A DNA stretch of 64,000 nt from Escherichia phage AV117, in sequence record OR352947.1. One strand, 5' to 3'. This document shows positions 13,875-40,387 of the stretch, one piece after another. Below the pieces are notes generated by a model that ran no database searches, was not told the DNA's origin, and saw nothing but the letters and a program-made list of their open reading frames with translations. Each line of letters opens with the position of its first letter. The first letter of the stretch is position 1. A program made the translations under genes and the position numbers.

Positions 13875-14231
13875 TTAACCCCGGAGTTTATTGAGCTCTT
13901 CATAATCAATCCAGGATTCTAGCCCTGACGGCAGGTCACATTCAATGTTCCACAGAAGCTCTTCAACGGCTTGCAGGCGATTATATTCTTCAACGGTAAT
14001 GGTAACCATTGGTGCAACCGGTTCCGCCTTTTTAACCATCATATCGTTCATCAGGACGTAAAGGTCATCACGAACGACGGTGTCGTTCCAACCCCATGAT
14101 TTGGCTTCGTAAGCTAATGATGAAGGGAGCACATTTAAAACTTCAATAATAGTTGGAGCATCAGGACCAAGTTCATTGGCACAAACTTCGTATACATCTT
14201 GGAAATCTTTAAGATTTAATGAATATGTCAT
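13875..14231 (-). CDS. Hypothetical protein
   Basis: 118-aa ORF coupled to nrdC. Confidence 0.5.
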   Translation of the reverse strand: MTYSLNLKDFQDVYEVCANELGPDAPTIIEVLNVLPSSLAYEAKSWGWNDTVVRDDLYVLMNDMMVKKAEPVAPMVTITVEEYNRLQAVEELLWNIECDLPSGLESWIDYEELNKLRG

Positions 14232-19266: not shown

Positions 19267-20247
19267 TTATTTCAGTAAAGTTACTTCAGAGATTTCCTCC
19301 CAACCATCTTTATCAGTTGAAATAAAATCTGCTACATAAAGAGCCGTACGTAATGATACATTGCGAAGACGAGATACGTTGGCCTTCATCCAGGACAATG
19401 CTTTATACGTTTCTGCATCTGTCAGACCACGTTTCTGCATCATGTCAGTAGATAATATTACATCTTCAACTCGAACCATAATCTCTTCATTAGAGTGTAC
19501 TCCGAGGTCGAGATACACTGAACGAGATACTAAAGCTTGAAGGTGTGGGGCAAGTTTCGAACCGCGTTCTAACTCTTTATCGATATCAACGTTTGTAATG
19601 AAAACGATAGTACCTTCAAACTCAAATTCTTTATCAATACCCTTATCATCGAGATAAGATGACGCAGTGCTCCAGCAAACTTTGCGTTTATCTCCAGTAT
19701 CTAATGCTGCTTTAAGAAGGTTCAAGATGTCCATATCCGAGAATACGTCAACGTCGTCGATTAAGAGAACGCTGTCTGCATCACGGTTGAGCCAAAGTTG
19801 TTCGTAAAGGCCAATACCAGAGATTTTACCATTAATGCTTTTGTATTTGATGAAACCATTATCATTAGCATTATTAAGTGCTTTATCCAGAGAATACGTC
19901 TTACCAATACCAGCTGCACCTGAAATAATGAGTGAACGAATTTTGCCATCGATAATGCCATTCGTCATCATGTTCATTACTTTAAAGCGTTTGTTGATAC
20001 GAGTTTTCATATCTTCAGTGCTTTCAACAACTGCAACTGGTGATGTCTCAACTCCTTCCATTACGATGTCTGATTTGAAGACCCATACTCCACGTTCAGA
20101 ACCATCAATCATAACGAAAATTTTACCATCACCTAAGTGGGAACATTCAGGATTAAGCTTTGCCGGGAACCATGTCTTTGTGGCAACATAAGAACCAGAG
20201 ATTTCGTTATTACGATAGATACCTTTTTTGATTTGAACGTTGAACAT
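19267..20247 (-). CDS. P-loop NTPase (AAA-like) with N-terminal domain
   Basis: Walker A GAAGIGKT, Walker B LLIDDVD, possible sensor-1 FITN; start moved to ATG 20247 with SD GGAGAATAAA. Confidence 0.55.
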   Translation of the reverse strand: MFNVQIKKGIYRNNEISGSYVATKTWFPAKLNPECSHLGDGKIFVMIDGSERGVWVFKSDIVMEGVETSPVAVVESTEDMKTRINKRFKVMNMMTNGIIDGKIRSLIISGAAGIGKTYSLDKALNNANDNGFIKYKSINGKISGIGLYEQLWLNRDADSVLLIDDVDVFSDMDILNLLKAALDTGDKRKVCWSTASSYLDDKGIDKEFEFEGTIVFITNVDIDKELERGSKLAPHLQALVSRSVYLDLGVHSNEEIMVRVEDVILSTDMMQKRGLTDAETYKALSWMKANVSRLRNVSLRTALYVADFISTDKDGWEEISEVTLLK

Positions 20248-20285
20248 TTTATTCTCCAATTTACTCATTTCGTTTCGATAGGTCT

Positions 20286-20366: not shown

Positions 20367-20630
20367 TTACTTATCGCACTTAGCAACATAATTAGGCATA
20401 TCACAGAATACGGAGCGAGTAACTACTCGGCCCTTTGACCATGCTTCAGTTGCTTGTCCGGCTGTGCTATTAATATAGCTTGATCTAATGTTCTCAATAC
20501 CCTGAGAATGTGATGCATTTACAGAACCATTAGAAGTCCCAGAAGACTGGTTACTACCAGCTGCACCCGTGGTAGCACCAACAGAGAATGCCATCATTAC
20601 TGCGAATAAACCAATTACTAATTTTTTCAT
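20367..20630 (-). CDS. Small secreted protein (signal peptide)
   Basis: 87 aa; N-terminal MKKLVIGLFAVMMAFSVGA, then Ser/Gly/Asn-rich region and C-terminal cysteine pair. Confidence 0.5.
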   Translation of the reverse strand: MKKLVIGLFAVMMAFSVGATTGAAGSNQSSGTSNGSVNASHSQGIENIRSSYINSTAGQATEAWSKGRVVTRSVFCDMPNYVAKCDK

Positions 20631-20661: not shown

Positions 20662-21651
20662 TTATTTATAGTAAGAATTATGATTTTCGAGATAGACTTG
20701 TTCAAGGAAGTCATCCCAGAAACTCATATCTACTTTTTGTTGCATACCGTTCTTGGCAGCTTGTTCTGACGCATGTTCAACTTGGTCAACGATATCTTCT
20801 AGGAATTCTTGAACAGTTTTAAACGTATGTTTACCAAGCTTAACATCGAGAATAAATGGAGCATCCTGAAGTGGGTAAACCAGGTCGCCTGTTTTGTAAA
20901 TTTCCAATAATTGAAGTCCACCACGACATGCATGACTCAATGCTTTCCAGTCAATACCTTCGTTAGCTTCTGCCTTACGAGCACGTTCACCATAGTTCTC
21001 TTCCAGTTTAACCAGGATGGCATTGAACTCTTTATTGGTTAACGTGTCTTGGAATTTACGGTCTAACAGATTATAGAATGTTTGCTTACCTGTTTTCTCG
21101 TTTTCAGTTTCAACCCACGAAGCAAATTCACCTACAGGCAGAACATTCTTCATATGTGATAAACGAATTACCGCACCATTATCAAAGTATTGTCCCCATT
21201 CATTAGAACGTTTAAGGGCTTGACGAAGAACAGCCAGTCGAGAACCCTTGACACCGTATTTAGAAGCTTGCTTACGGACATACCCTAAATAAGATTTCAT
21301 GTTAGTGGTATAGAAACGAGACCTGTTATCTTGAATATACTTCCATACATCAGGCAAATCAGATTTAACTACTAAACTTGGTGGAGTGTGAAGCATATCT
21401 AATGCGACGGTTTCACCATCCGCCGCTAATTTAAAGAAATATTTGAGACTATACAACTCATGGTCTACGTCGTCTTTTGTGTTCTTAGAAGATGTGTTAT
21501 TCGTGTTCTTGCTCATGTGTTCTTTAACGTTACCGGTCAAGATATCACGAGCGTGAGGGACATAAATTTCTTTAAAATCGACGTCAGATTCAGGAGTAGA
21601 CGTTCCGTAAAGGTGGCTACCAAAGTAGCCTTTCATAATTGTTTTCATCAT
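20662..21651 (-). CDS. Pol-beta-superfamily nucleotidyltransferase-fold protein
   Basis: N-terminal GS-x9-13-DxD signature (YFGSHLYGTSTPESDVDF) plus downstream acidic strand TVALDMLH; 329 aa with helical C-terminal half; ATG overlaps the upstream stop (ATGATGA). Confidence 0.6.
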   Translation of the reverse strand: MMKTIMKGYFGSHLYGTSTPESDVDFKEIYVPHARDILTGNVKEHMSKNTNNTSSKNTKDDVDHELYSLKYFFKLAADGETVALDMLHTPPSLVVKSDLPDVWKYIQDNRSRFYTTNMKSYLGYVRKQASKYGVKGSRLAVLRQALKRSNEWGQYFDNGAVIRLSHMKNVLPVGEFASWVETENEKTGKQTFYNLLDRKFQDTLTNKEFNAILVKLEENYGERARKAEANEGIDWKALSHACRGGLQLLEIYKTGDLVYPLQDAPFILDVKLGKHTFKTVQEFLEDIVDQVEHASEQAAKNGMQQKVDMSFWDDFLEQVYLENHNSYYK

Positions 21652-22121
21652 TTAGCCTTATATTCAAGAGTAGGACAGATTTTTTCTTTACGAGCTTTAA
21701 GGTATTCACCTATTAATGATTTCTTACGTTCAATAGGTTCAAGTCCGTTTTTAATTCGTTCTTGGTTTTGCGCAATGAGCTCAATTTCTTTATAATATTT
21801 TCTGTCGTTATATTTGTCTAACAACCAAGACGGACCAATTACCAACCCGGCAGAAATAAAAGCCATGACTGCTACCATTAAAATGCCTACACCAATTGAG
21901 GCCGGAACTAATGTCCATAGACTGCTAAAAACAAAGAATCTAGTTAAAATTTCTTGGCCAATGATTGTTACTGCTGCTAAAATCGCAAATCCAATAATTG
22001 AAACAGCCAATACCGGGATTAACGTTTTCCAAAAATAAGCACACAACGTTTTCGGACGATTCCATGTACTATTGAACGCGGCATAAATTTTAAAGTGCCA
22101 AGAGTTTTCATTGATAATCAT
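21648..22121 (-). CDS. Hypothetical membrane protein
   Basis: 157 aa with three or four hydrophobic helices; SD AAGGAATT; coupled to the NTase gene. Confidence 0.5.
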   Translation of the reverse strand: MIINENSWHFKIYAAFNSTWNRPKTLCAYFWKTLIPVLAVSIIGFAILAAVTIIGQEILTRFFVFSSLWTLVPASIGVGILMVAVMAFISAGLVIGPSWLLDKYNDRKYYKEIELIAQNQERIKNGLEPIERKKSLIGEYLKARKEKICPTLEYKAK

Positions 22122-22130
22122 AATAATTCC

Positions 22131-22661
22131 TTATTTCAAAGTCGGGATAATAGAATCAAGATAAGCTTTAAGAGCAACTGCTTCATCTTTGTCTAATGTA
22201 ACGATATGTTGACGAAGGTCATCAATTTGACGAATAACTACGACATCACCATCTTCATAAGAAGGATTAACGCCTAGGACTGTTGTATAGTCAGGGCGGT
22301 CCTGATTTGTAATAAAAGCATTACGGCATTTAGCCCATTGAAGTTTGGCCTTTTTGGCTGTTTCAGATTCCATGAATTCTTTCACTTTAGCGACGAATGT
22401 TTTCCAATTATTAATAGAAAAACATTCGTCTTCAGTTTCGATATTAACCCCACTATAAAGTCCATGATAAAAACGAACTTGAAGGTCTTCGTTAATGTTA
22501 ATTACAGATGCATGACCCGGTGGATTGAGTTTCAAAATCTTGTCTAGTTCCATAGGAAGAATAGTAGCAGCATCATCTTCTTGTGTCAGAACATACACAT
22601 AACCACGTTTTTCGATACATAAATCACCAAACAACTCGGTTGTTTCAATTACAGTTTTCAT
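22131..22661 (-). CDS. Hypothetical protein (first large gene of the NTase cassette)
   Basis: Start at ATG 22661 (MKTVIETTELF...); ORF-track start is TTG; coupled to the upstream small ORF (TAATATG). Confidence 0.5.
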   Translation of the reverse strand: MKTVIETTELFGDLCIEKRGYVYVLTQEDDAATILPMELDKILKLNPPGHASVININEDLQVRFYHGLYSGVNIETEDECFSINNWKTFVAKVKEFMESETAKKAKLQWAKCRNAFITNQDRPDYTTVLGVNPSYEDGDVVVIRQIDDLRQHIVTLDKDEAVALKAYLDSIIPTLK

Positions 22662-22662
22662 A

Positions 22663-22842
22663 TTATTCACCAATTAAAGTTTCAACAAAATTCACCAAAG
22701 CATTCTGACAAGCATCAACCTGATTTTCATAAAAGTCTACATTATCATTTACCGCATGATAAGCTACATCATTCAAATCTGAATCGGCTTCACGTAAGTC
22801 ACGGATAAGGTCCATCAATTTATTAGCTTGTTCACGGGTCAT
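22663..22842 (-). CDS. Hypothetical small acidic protein (59 aa)
   Basis: Hand translation MTREQANKLMDLIRDLREADSDLNDVAYHAVNDNVDFYENQVDACQNALVNFVETLIGE; a possible 36-aa hydrophobic peptide ORF lies upstream (about 22838-22948). Confidence 0.3.
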   Translation of the reverse strand: MTREQANKLMDLIRDLREADSDLNDVAYHAVNDNVDFYENQVDACQNALVNFVETLIGE

Positions 22843-22977
22843 TTTACCATACTCGTTTCAATAAGATTCACTATGCCGTTTACCATGTTATAAGTAAACA
22901 TCGGATAATTGTATTGTACTACAACATAAGCGATAAGCAAAAGTTTCATTTTGTTCTCCATTTGTTTTGGTAGGACT

Positions 22978-23008
22978 ACTATAACATAGTCCTACCAAGA
23001 CGTAAACT
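22978..23008 (-). promoter_or_regulatory. Early promoter (GTTTAC ... TATAGT) inside palindrome TAGGACT/AGTCCTA
   Basis: Minus strand GTTTACgtcttggtaggactatgtTATAGTagtcctacc. Confidence 0.45.
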
Positions 23009-23504: not shown

Positions 23505-23807
23505 TTAGATAGATGTAGGCTCTAATTTTATTTTCATGAACTCGGCAAATTGTCTGGCAGTTTTTATGCCTTGTTCATGACATTCAAATGCATCATCACA
23601 GGGGCTATTTTTGTAATGCTTTGCCATATACTTATAGAATTTTTCAGAATTCTCGACATTTTGAATTTCAAACAAAGTATATACGTTTTTAATCCCTGAT
23701 TCCATAAAGTTGTCAAAATATGGGTCAGTATACGCAGTACCAACGATAGGAGTTGTTGCTGCAAAAAACCCCAGCATCGCCATGACAGCTATCGCTCTTA
23801 AGGCCAT
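23505..23807 (-). CDS. rI: Lysis inhibition regulator rI (periplasmic, signal-anchored)
   Basis: 100 aa, MALRAIAVMAMLGFF...DPYFDNFMESGIKNVYTLFE...; immediately downstream of tk as in T4. Confidence 0.7.
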   Translation of the reverse strand: MALRAIAVMAMLGFFAATTPIVGTAYTDPYFDNFMESGIKNVYTLFEIQNVENSEKFYKYMAKHYKNSPCDDAFECHEQGIKTARQFAEFMKIKLEPTSI

Positions 23808-24059: not shown

Positions 24060-24641
24060 TTATAACAACCCTGTCAAATCATTCCAATGCTTCCGGCATA
24101 ATGACACATATCTATCGGTATCACCAATTTCAATTTGACTGCCATCCGTAATTGGAAGTCCGTCTTCCGTGACTCTAGCTACCATTGTGGCCTTTTTACC
24201 ACAATGACAGACACCTTTAAGTTCAACAAGCTTATCGGCAATAGCCATTAATGCTTGAGAACCTTCAAATAGATTACCTTTAAAATCTGTTCGTAGTCCA
24301 TATGCCATTACTGGCACATTGTATACGTCAACAATACGACTAAGTTGATACACCTTTTCAGTAGTTAAGAACTGAGCTTCGTCAACAAATACACAATGAA
24401 TATCCTTTTGTGCTGCAGCCCATTTATAGAATTCAAAGATATCCATGTCTTTTGTAATTATATTGGCGTCCTGACGAATACCAATACGGGAGACTATTTC
24501 ACCTTTTGAATCGCGAGTATCAATAGCCGGTTTAAGAACTAATACACCCATGCCACGTTCTTTATAGTTATGTGCGGCAGTAAGTAATGAAGCAGACTTA
24601 CCAGCGTTCATAGCGGCATATGTAAAAATTAAACTAGCCAT
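24060..24641 (-). CDS. tk: Thymidine kinase
   Basis: 193 aa; P-loop MNAGKS; C-terminal zinc ribbon CHCGKKAT...CRKHW. Confidence 0.9.
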   Translation of the reverse strand: MASLIFTYAAMNAGKSASLLTAAHNYKERGMGVLVLKPAIDTRDSKGEIVSRIGIRQDANIITKDMDIFEFYKWAAAQKDIHCVFVDEAQFLTTEKVYQLSRIVDVYNVPVMAYGLRTDFKGNLFEGSQALMAIADKLVELKGVCHCGKKATMVARVTEDGLPITDGSQIEIGDTDRYVSLCRKHWNDLTGLL

Positions 24642-40232: not shown

Positions 40233-40309
<77 letters not shown>

Positions 40310-40312
40310 GAT

Positions 40313-40387
40313 TGGTGACCCTGGCTGGTTTCGATCCAGCTACCTATCAGTTATGAGCTGACAGCTCTCCCATTGAGCTACAGGGCC
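40313..40387 (-). tRNA. tRNA with anticodon CAU (Ile, lysidine-type, or Met), CCA encoded
   Basis: Hand-folded: acceptor GGCCCUG/CAGGGUC, D-arm GCUC/GAGC, anticodon arm GUCAG-CUCAUAA-CUGAU, T-arm GCUGG-AUCGAAA-CCAGC; 3 nt from tRNA-Arg. Confidence 0.7.

What the first reader, a model, noticed from the sequence alone, without database searches (positions are those of the whole stretch)
20662..22842. Three- to four-gene early cassette encoding a Pol-beta-type nucleotidyltransferase, a multi-pass membrane protein and two unknown proteins
The 329-aa product of 20662-21651 has an N-terminal YFGSHLYGTSTPESDVDF segment (GS-x-DxD spacing) and a downstream acidic beta-strand (TVALDMLH), the hallmark of minimal nucleotidyltransferases, CD-NTases/cGAS-like enzymes and KNTases, followed by a ~230-aa helical domain. 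It is translationally coupled (ATGATGA, TAATATG overlaps) to a 157-aa membrane protein and to a 176-aa and a 59-aa protein, all behind one early promoter in an accessory region between rI and a P-loop ATPase gene. An early-expressed NTase-fold enzyme in a phage is a candidate nucleotide-signal maker or modifier, or a nucleic-acid/protein nucleotidylating anti-defence or host-takeover factor. I do not recognise a characterised T4 gene here.
Basis: partly seen in the sequence, partly recalled or inferred. Interest (0 to 1): 0.7.

Follow-up and report, generated by a model that had tools for sequence, protein, structure and literature searches.

The report
T4 NrdC.11-type RlaP RNA nucleotidyltransferase gene
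The flagged gene is this T4-like phage's copy of the known T4 gene nrdC.11, from an enzyme family shown in bacteria to add one or two nucleotides to broken RNA ends during RNA repair, so the finding is real but ordinary.

Summary
The window comes from a Mosigvirus, a T4-like coliphage. All the genes in question lie on the minus strand.

- **Identity of the enzyme.** The 329-aa protein (20662-21651) is a real Pol-beta-fold nucleotidyltransferase. It is the ortholog of T4 NrdC.11 (78% identity) and scores above threshold for Pfam PF10127, the RlaP family ("RNA ligase-associating Pol-beta").
- **Known activity of the family.** A 2025 preprint shows that bacterial RlaP enzymes add 1-2 NMP to RNA 3'-OH ends. 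The same preprint names T4 NrdC.11 as a family member.
- **Catalytic residues.** G11-S12 and D23-x-D25 are invariant among homologues. The third catalytic acid is D63, on a beta-strand.
- **Context in cells.** Relatives of this subfamily in bacteria and archaea sit in RNA-repair operons with RtcB, Pnkp/Hen1, Ro60, a Pnk-Rnl1 fusion or a second RlaP.
- **The "cassette".** It is lineage-specific gene order, not a functional module. T4 has a homing endonuclease where the membrane gene sits here, the 59-aa gene is almost unique to Mosigvirus, and a fifth 40-aa gene was missed.
- **Rejected readings.** I found no support for cGAS-like or Hailong-like function.

The best reading is an early, dispensable RNA-end-restoring enzyme that helps phage tRNA repair against host anticodon nucleases. 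This role is untested in any phage.

The parts
20662..21651 (-). NTase gene, 329 aa. Ortholog of T4 nrdC.11 and a long-form RlaP (PF10127) Pol-beta nucleotidyltransferase. Predicted catalytic residues: G11-S12 (21621-21616), D23 (21585-21583), D25 (21579-21577) and D63 (21465-21463). The conserved D85 (21399-21397) lies in a helix.
   Evidence: Pfam RlaP E 7.7e-13, 49.1 bits against a cut-off of 23. phrog_388 'nucleotidyltransferase' E 2.6e-126. 78% identity to T4 NrdC.11. Residue conservation. AF2 model pLDDT 94. hhalign against canonical RlaP, probability 93%.
21648..22121 (-). 157-aa membrane protein modelled as a two-helix hairpin, function unknown. Its stop overlaps the NTase start by ATGA. 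Invariant W8, H9, C27, Y29 and C149 lie in its N- and C-terminal tails.
   Evidence: phrog_944 E 3.2e-53 and no Pfam family. Alignments A4 and A5. AF2 model pLDDT 80 with helices 26-64 and 68-124. No PDB similarity. Absent from T4.
22131..22661 (-). 176-aa homologue of T4 MobD.1 (y05I).
   Evidence: Pfam T4_y05I_N E 2.9e-40 and T4_y05I_C E 2.1e-19. 45% identity to T4 MobD.1.
22663..22842 (-). 59-aa DUF7438 protein, almost confined to Mosigvirus.
   Evidence: Pfam DUF7438 E 5.8e-16. Found next to the NTase gene in only 2 of 79 phage loci.
22839..22961 (-). It overlaps the 59-aa gene by ATGA.
   Evidence: phrog_3515 E 5.1e-21. 62% identity to T4 MobD.2. Sequence read directly.
22978..23006 (-). 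T4-early-type promoter match, GTTTACG-17 nt-TATAGT.
   Evidence: Consensus scan, 9 of 12 positions plus an extended TG. T4 has the same hexamers at the equivalent position, as do other lineages. Function is inferred.
22964..23001 (-). 13-bp stem (15 pairs including two outer ones) whose loop carries most of the -10 hexamer.
   Evidence: RNA fold dG -21.9 kcal/mol, z -4.9. The stem is kept with a different sequence in T4 and in a third lineage.
20367..20630 (-). 87-aa signal-peptide protein 31 nt downstream of the NTase gene. It probably belongs to the same transcript and fills a variable slot before nrdC.10.
   Evidence: phrog_2243 E 1.5e-37. Absent from T4. Present in 2 of 79 loci. GADS24 has two genes in this slot.

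Best explanation
The 329-aa protein is the Mosigvirus ortholog of T4 NrdC.11, a long-form member of the RlaP family of Pol-beta nucleotidyltransferases.

The most likely mechanism is as follows. The enzyme uses a two-metal site formed by D23, D25 and D63, with G11-S12 positioning the NTP. It transfers one or two NMPs from NTPs to the 3'-OH of broken RNA without a template. Early in infection this would restore nucleotides that host anticodon nucleases of the RloC type trim from cleaved tRNAs. The phage's own end-healing and sealing enzymes (Pnkp, Rnl1 and Rnl2, encoded elsewhere in the genome) could then re-ligate a functional tRNA.

- Shown here: fold, family membership, residue conservation, orthology, and the RNA-repair gene context of cellular relatives.
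- Taken from a preprint on bacterial members: the RNA 3'-NMP-transferase activity.
- Inferred: that the phage enzyme has this activity, that tRNA is its substrate, and that its role is anti-defence.

The neighbouring genes (MobD.2-like, DUF7438, MobD.1-like, the 2-TM membrane protein and the 87-aa secreted protein) are co-transcribed accessory genes. They share lineage-specific gene order with the NTase gene and are not obligatory partners.
For: - **Family.** Pfam RlaP scores above its gathering cut-off. Profile-profile alignment to canonical RlaP covers residues 5-131 with probability 93% and E 3.4e-7. It maps D23/D25 to the invariant DxD and D63 to the invariant third Asp.
- **Conservation.** G11, S12, D23 and D25 are invariant, and D61, D63 and D85 are at least 90% conserved, in 99 representatives.
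- **Orthology.** 78% identity to T4 NrdC.11 in conserved gene order.
- **Literature.** PMC12776372 reports that Pseudomonas RlaP enzymes add 1-2 NMP to RNA 3'-OH ends, do not act on DNA or protein, and prefer Mn2+. They partly restore aminoacylation of a tRNA that lacks one anticodon-loop nucleotide. The preprint places T4 NrdC.11 in the family. PMC7824862 makes the same prediction for phage RlaP enzymes.
- **Cellular context.** At least 34 of the 80 cellular loci that encode 33-52% identical relatives carry RNA-repair genes nearby: a canonical RlaP in 22 (directly downstream in most), RtcB in 8, Pnkp in 7, Hen1 in 6, Ro60 in 2, an HD-domain protein in 4, and one kinase-phosphatase-Rnl1 fusion that abuts the NTase gene.
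- **Distant phages.** In Rhodobacter phage RcXuper the gene sits inside a tRNA gene array. In Alishewanella phage Slicko01 it overlaps the stop of an annotated tRNA nucleotidyltransferase gene.
- **Repair partners.** GADS24, 97.8% identical to the window over this region, encodes RNA ligase 1, RNA ligase 2 and polynucleotide kinase.
- **Dispensability.** A viable T4 mutant lacks most of nrdC.11. That fits an accessory, conflict-related gene.
Against: - I found no experiment on any phage member.
- Only the N-terminal ~130 residues align significantly to canonical RlaP. The Pfam match covers model positions 23-148 of 249. The C-terminal 200 residues, with an extra ~85-100-residue helix and beta-sheet insert, give no significant profile match (E 0.16).
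- The RlaP crystal structure is not in the PDB copy, so the folds could not be compared directly.
- No RNA-repair gene lies near the NTase gene in the window or in 79 phage loci. tRNA genes are within 8 kb in only 7 of 79.
- About 46 of the 80 cellular loci show no RNA-repair neighbour.
- The biochemical source is an unreviewed preprint, and its authors call the in vivo role a proposal.
- In bacteria the long form often comes paired with a canonical RlaP. The two may therefore have non-identical activities.
Confidence: 0.6

Rival explanations
1. Hailong-like or membrane-coupled pair. The NTase would make a protein-primed or free oligonucleotide that controls the translationally coupled membrane protein, as HalB oligo-dA controls the HalA channel. 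Alternatively it would supply such an oligonucleotide to silence a host Hailong system.
For: - The gene order is membrane gene then NTase gene, with a 4-nt overlap.
- The membrane family lies within 8 kb of the NTase gene in 36 of 37 loci where the NTase is at least 60% identical.
- Hailong is a two-gene system of a membrane protein and an NTase.
Against: - The membrane protein resembles neither HalA nor any other PDB chain, by sequence or by fold (best Foldseek E 5.4).
- Neither protein hits a PADLOC model.
- T4 keeps nrdC.11 but has no membrane-family gene in the tk-nrdC region.
- Co-occurrence falls to 3 of 10 loci at 50-60% NTase identity, 5 of 32 below 50%, and 0 of 80 cellular loci. That pattern fits shared gene order rather than coupling.
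- Membrane-family genes in Aeromonas phage 65 and ICP1 have no NTase gene beside them.
- HalB identity is only 16%, and other generic NTases score close behind it.
Confidence: 0.05
2. Nucleotide second-messenger synthase of the cGAS, DncV or CD-NTase kind, or an enzyme that makes or modifies immune signalling nucleotides.
For: It shares the Pol-beta NTase fold and the GS...DxD motif. It is probably expressed early in an accessory region.
Against: - There is no match to CD-NTase, SMODS or Mab-21 families in Pfam, NCBIfam or PADLOC.
- The fold matches listed are KNTase, ANT, LinB and HalB types, not cGAS or DncV.
- Above-threshold membership in RlaP, whose tested members act on RNA 3' ends.
- The gene context of cellular relatives is RNA repair, not CBASS-type effectors.
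Confidence: 0.03
3. An RNA 3'-end transferase, but with a different target or purpose. It could repair tRNA acceptor (CCA) ends, or it could tail host or phage RNAs to change their stability as part of host takeover.
For: - RlaP labels rRNA- and tRNA-sized species and shows little NTP specificity.
- In phage Slicko01 the gene is translationally coupled to a CCA-adding-enzyme gene, and in RcXuper it sits among tRNA genes.
- No RNA ligase gene lies next to it in T4-like phages.
Against: - Tested RlaP enzymes stop after 1-2 nucleotides, which argues against tailing.
- They prefer the 5'-half of a tRNA nicked in the anticodon loop over the acceptor end.
- Cellular relatives are linked to ligase systems (Pnkp/Hen1, RtcB, an Rnl1 fusion) that seal internal breaks.
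Confidence: 0.17
4. Small-molecule or protein nucleotidyltransferase, such as an aminoglycoside or lincosamide NTase, or an MNT/GlnE-type AMPylase that modifies a host protein or toxin.
Against: - The NCBIfam MntA score is 12.9 bits against a cut-off of 60.
- Tested RlaP enzymes did not label E. coli proteins.
- No HEPN or toxin partner lies adjacent.
Confidence: 0.05

Closest known systems
T4 NrdC.11 (NP_049709, annotated 'nucleotidyltransferase')
   Same: 78% identity over the full length. Same position between the mobD.1-side genes and nrdC.10, and same strand. Predicted to be an NTase since 2006 through COG3541.
   Different: In T4 the HNH homing-endonuclease gene mobD lies immediately upstream, where this phage has the 157-aa membrane gene. 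T4 also lacks the 59-aa and 87-aa genes. I found no experimental study of either protein.
Bacterial RlaP (Pseudomonas fluorescens and P. aeruginosa RlaP, PF10127; PMC12776372)
   Same: Pfam family membership and the GS / DxD / third-Asp motif, with significant profile alignment over the NTase domain. The layout is an N-terminal NTase domain plus a C-terminal helical domain. Cellular relatives of this subfamily sit in RNA-ligase operons.
   Different: It belongs to a separate sequence cluster (the preprint's cluster 5 against cluster 1a). It is about 70-80 residues longer, with an inserted long helix and beta-sheet (residues ~132-230). The C-terminal domain is not significantly alignable, although conserved K-x3-[H/Y]-x2-R, P and K-x-G motifs are collinear. 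In the phage it is not next to a ligase gene. Its activity is untested.
HalB, the nucleotidyltransferase of the Hailong defence system (PDB 9dbh)
   Different: Identity is 16%. HalB is about 217 aa and makes protein-primed oligo-dA. The membrane partner here is unrelated to HalA. No PADLOC hit.
Kanamycin nucleotidyltransferase / ANT(4') and LinB
   Same: NTase domain plus helical C-terminal domain; top Foldseek PDB matches.
   Different: E 1.5e-3, TM about 0.3-0.36 and 8-10% identity. These enzymes act on small-molecule substrates, and there is no family-level sequence match.
CCA-adding enzyme (tRNA nucleotidyltransferase)
   Same: A template-independent Pol-beta-superfamily enzyme that restores RNA 3' nucleotides. 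One distant phage homologue of the NTase is translationally coupled to such a gene.
   Different: It belongs to a different family with a different C-terminal domain, and the query has no Pfam match to it.

Membership tests
[quoted passage not shown] | Sequence match to the family model above the curated threshold | tested here: met
   49.1 bits against a gathering score of 23, E 7.7e-13. Only model positions 23-148 of 249 are covered. hhalign against 15 canonical RlaP sequences gives probability 93%, E 3.4e-7, over residues 5-131.
[quoted passage not shown] | hG[GS] motif and three conserved catalytic aspartates | tested here: met
   G11, S12, D23 and D25 are invariant and D63 is at least 90% conserved in 99 homologues. 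D23, D25 and D63 align to the invariant D49, D51 and D82 of canonical RlaP. D63 lies on strand 62-68 of the model.
[quoted passage not shown] | N-terminal NTase domain plus C-terminal helical domain homologous to that of PfRlaP | tested here: inconclusive
   The model shows an NTase domain followed by a helical domain. The C-terminal profiles do not align significantly (E 0.16), although the conserved K, R, P and K-x-G positions are collinear. The PfRlaP structure is not in the PDB copy.
[quoted passage not shown] | Gene neighbourhood with RNA ligase or RNA-repair genes | tested here: inconclusive
   Not met locally: no RtcB, Pnkp, Hen1 or Ro60 in the window or in 79 phage loci. T4-type Rnl1, Rnl2 and PseT were not searched in the window or those loci. 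Met for the subfamily: at least 34 of 80 cellular loci have such neighbours. The same phage lineage encodes Rnl1, Rnl2 and Pnkp roughly 80-110 kb away on the circular map.
[quoted passage not shown] | Adds 1-2 NMP to RNA 3'-OH ends; no activity on DNA or protein | not testable with these tools
   Known only for two Pseudomonas enzymes (PMC12776372).
T4 NrdC.11 orthologous group | High full-length identity and conserved gene order between tk/rI/mobD.1 and nrdC.10 | tested here: met
   78% identity over 329 residues. The flanking genes match T4 MobD.1 (45%), MobD.2 (62%), NrdC.10 (77%) and NrdC.8 (83%).
CD-NTase / cGAS-DncV-like signalling synthases | Sequence or fold match to cGAS, DncV or CD-NTase, and an adjacent effector | tested here: not met
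   No Pfam, NCBIfam or PADLOC match. No cGAS or DncV chain appears among the PDB fold matches listed.
Hailong (HalA channel plus HalB NTase) | HalB-like NTase | tested here: inconclusive
Hailong (HalA channel plus HalB NTase) | HalA-like tetrameric membrane effector encoded next to the NTase | tested here: not met
   The 157-aa partner is modelled as a two-helix hairpin. No PDB match by sequence or by fold (best E 5.4).
MNT antitoxin (type VII toxin-antitoxin minimal NTase) | Match to the MntA model and an adjacent HEPN toxin | tested here: not met
   12.9 bits against a cut-off of 60. No neighbour has a HEPN domain.

The most novel reading that the evidence does not exclude
The NTase and the translationally coupled two-helix membrane protein act as a pair. 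The membrane protein's invariant W8, H9, C27, Y29 and C149 lie in tails that the model brings together. It might tether or regulate an RNA-end-modifying enzyme at the membrane, or it might be gated by the NTase's product. Separately, the long-form (NrdC.11-type) RlaP may have a substrate or product different from canonical RlaP, since bacteria often keep both forms in tandem.
Probability: 0.08. Interest if true: 0.6.

Novelty: already known. Interest (0 to 1): 0.25.

Why it matters
For scanning purposes this region can be filed as annotated. It holds orthologues of T4 nrdC.11 (an RlaP-family nucleotidyltransferase), mobD.1, mobD.2 and nrdC.10, plus lineage-specific small genes.

What remains of interest is modest. 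Nobody has tested whether a phage RlaP takes part in the classic T4 tRNA-repair pathway. T4 Pnkp and Rnl1 repair PrrC-cut tRNA-Lys, but they cannot restore a nucleotide excised by RloC-type nucleases. An enzyme that adds that nucleotide back would fill this gap.

The work here adds four points:
- The third catalytic residue is D63, not D85.
- The phage subfamily is a long form with an insert.
- Its cellular relatives sit in Pnkp/Hen1, RtcB, Ro60 and Rnl1-fusion operons, often in tandem with a canonical RlaP.
- The neighbouring genes are not obligatory partners.

Tried and rejected
1. **Direct PDB sequence search.** Searches with the protein and with a 99-sequence profile gave only chance hits, so no RlaP structure was available for comparison.
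2. **AFDB fold search.** The afdb50 library was not installed. Whether the C-terminal domain matches canonical RlaP therefore stays open. A C-terminal-only hhalign was not significant.
3. **Hailong hypothesis.** I modelled the membrane protein and searched the PDB by fold and by sequence. Nothing resembled HalA, so I rejected it.
4. **cGAS/CD-NTase, MNT and defence-system hypotheses.** No hits in Pfam, NCBIfam or PADLOC.
5. **tRNA-gene proximity as a general feature.** Only 7 of 79 phage loci have a tRNA gene within 8 kb, and most of those lie 5-7 kb away. The RcXuper and Slicko01 contexts are anecdotes.
6. **NrdC.10 ATPase as a functional partner.** It lies downstream in 34 of 79 phage loci and was not detected in the cellular loci. 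I treated it as shared gene order.
7. **First homology search.** It returned only near-identical proteins and gave no diversity. The representative library supplied the diversity instead.
8. **Literature.** Searches for nrdC.11, mobD.1, RlaP and phage tRNA-repair NTases found no experimental work on the phage protein.
9. **Generic promoter and terminator scan.** It found no more sites than shuffled sequence, so it carries no evidential weight.
Full report
**What the window is.** The 5.7-kb stretch around the finding is 97-98% identical to many Mosigvirus genomes (T4-like Straboviridae), for example Escherichia phage GADS24. Every gene in the region lies on the minus strand. In transcription order they are:
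- tk, 24060-24641
- an rI.1-like gene
- rI, 23505-23807
- two small ORFs
- a promoter-like site
- a 40-aa ORF, 22839-22961
- the 59-aa ORF, 22663-22842
- the 176-aa ORF, 22131-22661
- the 157-aa membrane protein, 21648-22121
- the 329-aa NTase, 20662-21651
- an 87-aa signal-peptide protein, 20367-20630
- a 333-aa P-loop ATPase, 19267-20268

**Checking the observation.**
- The ORFs and the N-terminal GS...DxD segment are as described.
- The 157-aa stop and the NTase start overlap as ATGA.
- 'TAATATG' is a one-base spacer, not an overlap.
- The 87-aa gene follows the NTase gene after 31 nt, so it probably belongs to the same transcript.
- The promoter candidate GTTTACG-17-TATAGT (23006-22978) matches what I know of the T4 early-promoter consensus. 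T4 has the same hexamers at the equivalent spot upstream of mobD.2, as do other lineages.
- The generic scan finds no more promoter-like sites than shuffled sequence. 'Early' is therefore an inference.

**Identity of the genes.** A tblastn search against the T4 reference region gives the following.

| Window gene | T4 counterpart | Identity |
|---|---|---|
| NTase, 329 aa | NrdC.11 | 78% |
| P-loop ATPase, 333 aa | NrdC.10 | 77% |
| 176-aa protein | MobD.1 (y05I) | 45% |
| 40-aa protein | MobD.2 | 62% |
| 59-aa, 157-aa and 87-aa proteins | none in that T4 region | - |

- In T4 the HNH homing-endonuclease gene mobD occupies the place of the membrane gene. The published mobD insertion site is 'nrdC.11/mobD.1'.
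The T4 genes are named but uncharacterised.
- nrdC.11 was linked to a nucleotidyltransferase COG in 2006.
- Proteins identical to the window's NTase are already in public databases. They are labelled 'nucleotidyltransferase', 'DNA polymerase beta superfamily protein' or 'RNA repair pathway DNA polymerase beta'. Many are labelled 'thioredoxin', which is clearly wrong.

**Family and fold.**
- Pfam places the protein in PF10127 (RlaP) at 49.1 bits against a threshold of 23. PHROGs gives phrog_388, 'nucleotidyltransferase', at E 2.6e-126.
- The family is large. 3214 representatives of 50%-identity clusters score E <= 1e-3, and 742 score E <= 1e-30.
- In an alignment of 99 representatives (35-56% identity), G11, S12, S22, D23, D25, Y132, K236, R243 and G273 are invariant. 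D61, D63 and D85 are among the positions at least 90% conserved.
- The AlphaFold2 model is confident (pLDDT 94, pTM 0.83). It shows strand 3-10, the GS turn, strand 24-31 carrying D23/D25, and strand 62-68 carrying D63. A helical domain follows, with a long helix (119-155) and a three-stranded sheet (177-201).
- TVALDMLH (81-87) is a helix in this model.
- Profile-profile alignment to 15 canonical RlaP sequences, taken from bacterial loci found here, is significant over residues 5-131 (probability 93%, E 3.4e-7). It aligns D63 with the invariant third Asp and D85 with the invariant Glu of the 'EWL' motif.
- So the acidic triad is D23/D25/D63.
- The C-terminal ~200 residues do not align significantly (E 0.16). 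The best alignment does put the conserved K236/H240/R243, P260 and K271-x-G273 opposite K160/Y164/R167, PP182-183 and K210 of canonical RlaP. I read this as a probable but unproven homologous domain with an insert of about 85-100 residues.
- PDB searches by sequence found nothing.
- The RlaP crystal structure described in the preprint is evidently not in the PDB copy.

**What the family does.**
- PMC12776372 (bioRxiv, December 2025) reports that two Pseudomonas RlaP enzymes add one or two NMPs to the 3'-OH of RNA. They do not act on DNA or protein, prefer Mn2+, and favour the 5'-half of an anticodon-nicked tRNA mimic.
- The same enzymes partly restore aminoacylation of a tRNA that had lost one anticodon-loop nucleotide before ligation.
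- The authors propose RlaP as the antidote to ribotoxins such as RloC that excise a nucleotide. They place T4 NrdC.11 in cluster 5 of the family.
- A comparative-genomics paper makes the same prediction for phage RlaP enzymes.
- I found no experiment on the T4 or any other phage protein.

**Independent context evidence gathered here.**
- A scan of one genome per prokaryotic species returned 80 loci that encode 33-52% identical, full-length relatives. Two of these look like T4-like phage contigs that were binned into MAGs.
- A simple tblastn with one representative of each neighbour family found at least one neighbour in 33 of the 80 loci (Pfam identities, counts):

| Neighbour | Loci (of 80) |
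|---|---|
| Canonical RlaP, directly downstream in most | 22 |
| RtcB | 8 |
| Pnkp (kinase-phosphatase-ligase) | 7 |
| Hen1 | 6 |
| HD-domain protein | 4 |
| Ro60 | 2 |

- A further locus has a kinase-phosphatase-T4-Rnl1-type ligase fusion that ends 4 nt before the NTase start. That makes at least 34 of 80.
- The rest have unrelated housekeeping neighbours.
- So the NrdC.11-type subfamily itself, and not only canonical RlaP, is tied to RNA repair.
- In two distant phages the gene sits inside a tRNA gene array (RcXuper) or overlaps the stop of an annotated tRNA nucleotidyltransferase gene (Slicko01).
- tRNA proximity is not general: 7 of 79 loci.
- GADS24, the near-identical phage, encodes RNA ligase 2, polynucleotide kinase and RNA ligase 1, far from this locus. 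These are 5'-phosphate ligases. The preprint notes that such ligases are chemically compatible with the 3'-OH product of RlaP.

**Is the cassette a functional unit?**
- In 79 IMG/VR loci with an NTase homologue, tblastn finds the membrane gene upstream in 41, NrdC.10 downstream in 34, MobD.1 in 13, MobD.2 in 15, the 59-aa gene in 2 and the 87-aa gene in 2.
- A profile of the membrane family finds it in 36 of 37 loci where the NTase is at least 60% identical (abutting in 11). It is in 3 of 10 loci at 50-60% identity, 5 of 32 below 50%, and 0 of 80 cellular loci. It is absent from the T4 tk-nrdC region.
- Membrane-family genes in Aeromonas phage 65 and ICP1 have no NTase neighbour.
- This pattern fits gene order inherited within a phage lineage and eroded by insertions such as mobD. 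It does not fit an obligatory module.
- The region is dispensable. T4 tolerates deletion of nrdC.11-mobD.3, and the deposited mutant T4_7t1 retains only the last ~40 codons of nrdC.11.

**The membrane protein.**
- It has no Pfam family.
- Alignments show invariant W8, H9, C27, Y29 and C149, in an N-terminal 'NSWH...P.SLC.YFWK' motif and a C-terminal 'KAKK.K.CP.LEF' motif.
- The model (pLDDT 80) is a hairpin of two long helices, with the N- and C-terminal tails paired.

**Conclusion.**
- The fold assignment is right, the signalling-enzyme reading is not supported, and the four-gene-module idea is not supported.
- The gene is a known ortholog in a named family with published activity for bacterial members, so it is not new.
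- Its role during infection has not been tested. The most likely role is template-independent restoration of one or two nucleotides at damaged RNA 3' ends, working with the phage Pnkp and RNA ligases against nucleotide-excising anticodon nucleases.
- I put about 0.6 on the RNA 3'-end transferase and repair reading. Most of the remainder goes to other RNA-end roles.

Noticed in passing
window 22964-23001 (minus strand); T4 locus L001 ~13950-13992; L026: A 13-bp stem encloses most of the -10 hexamer of the early-type promoter in its loop (dG -21.9 kcal/mol, z -4.9). T4 and a third lineage keep a hairpin at the same place with entirely different stem sequences, which looks like compensatory change. 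Other lineages instead have a plain promoter preceded by a GC hairpin and T-run terminator. Function is unknown; it could mark a 3' end or processing site of read-through RNA, or occlude the promoter.
   Followed up: partly
window 21648-22121 (minus strand): The 157-aa membrane protein belongs to a family with no Pfam model. W8, H9, C27, Y29 and C149 are invariant and lie in tails that the model brings together, which may form a small metal- or disulfide-linked module on one side of the membrane. Homologues occur in T4-like, jumbo and ICP1 phages.
   Followed up: partly
cellular loci L092-L162, for example L157:6001-7770, L161, L113 and L131: Bacterial relatives of the NrdC.11-type long RlaP are very often followed directly by a canonical ~260-aa RlaP (22 of 80 loci). 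The two forms may therefore not be redundant. L131, a Rickettsiales MAG, has a kinase-phosphatase-Rnl1 fusion that ends 4 nt before the NTase start.
   Followed up: partly
L005 (Rhodobacter phage RcXuper) 5001-5990; L006 (Alishewanella phage Slicko01) 4905-5888: In RcXuper a distant NTase homologue sits inside an array of more than 12 tRNA genes. In Slicko01 it overlaps the stop of an annotated tRNA nucleotidyltransferase gene, with a macro-domain gene 1.2 kb downstream.
   Followed up: no
window 20367-20630 (minus strand); L002 4318-4926: The slot between the NTase gene and nrdC.10 is variable. This phage has one 87-aa signal-peptide protein with a weak, sub-threshold match to the BLB8/JUQZ-1 family. 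GADS24 has two genes there and T4 has none.
   Followed up: no
GenBank and UniRef names seen: Many deposited records call the NrdC.11 ortholog and its neighbours 'thioredoxin', and UniRef clusters carry the same name. This looks like an annotation error spread from the 'nrdC.x' locus names. PHROG 4859 labels the 59-aa DUF7438 protein 'helicase loader', which also seems doubtful.
   Followed up: no
L087 (Bacilli MAG) and L088 (Flagellimonas marina assembly): These contigs in 'bacterial' assemblies carry tk (and rI in L088) a few kb upstream of an NTase that is 49-52% identical, in T4-like gene order. They look like T4-like phage sequence binned or assembled with bacterial genomes.
   Followed up: no
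window 40233-40387 (minus strand): Two adjacent tRNA genes, tRNA-Arg(TCT) and tRNA-Met(CAT), are the only RNA-family matches in the window.
   Followed up: no
window 19267-20268 (minus strand): The NrdC.10 ortholog (333 aa) has only sub-threshold AAA/STAND-type P-loop matches and a weak HTH_37 match near its C terminus. It is common downstream of the NTase gene in phages (34 of 79 loci) and was not detected in the cellular loci.
   Followed up: no
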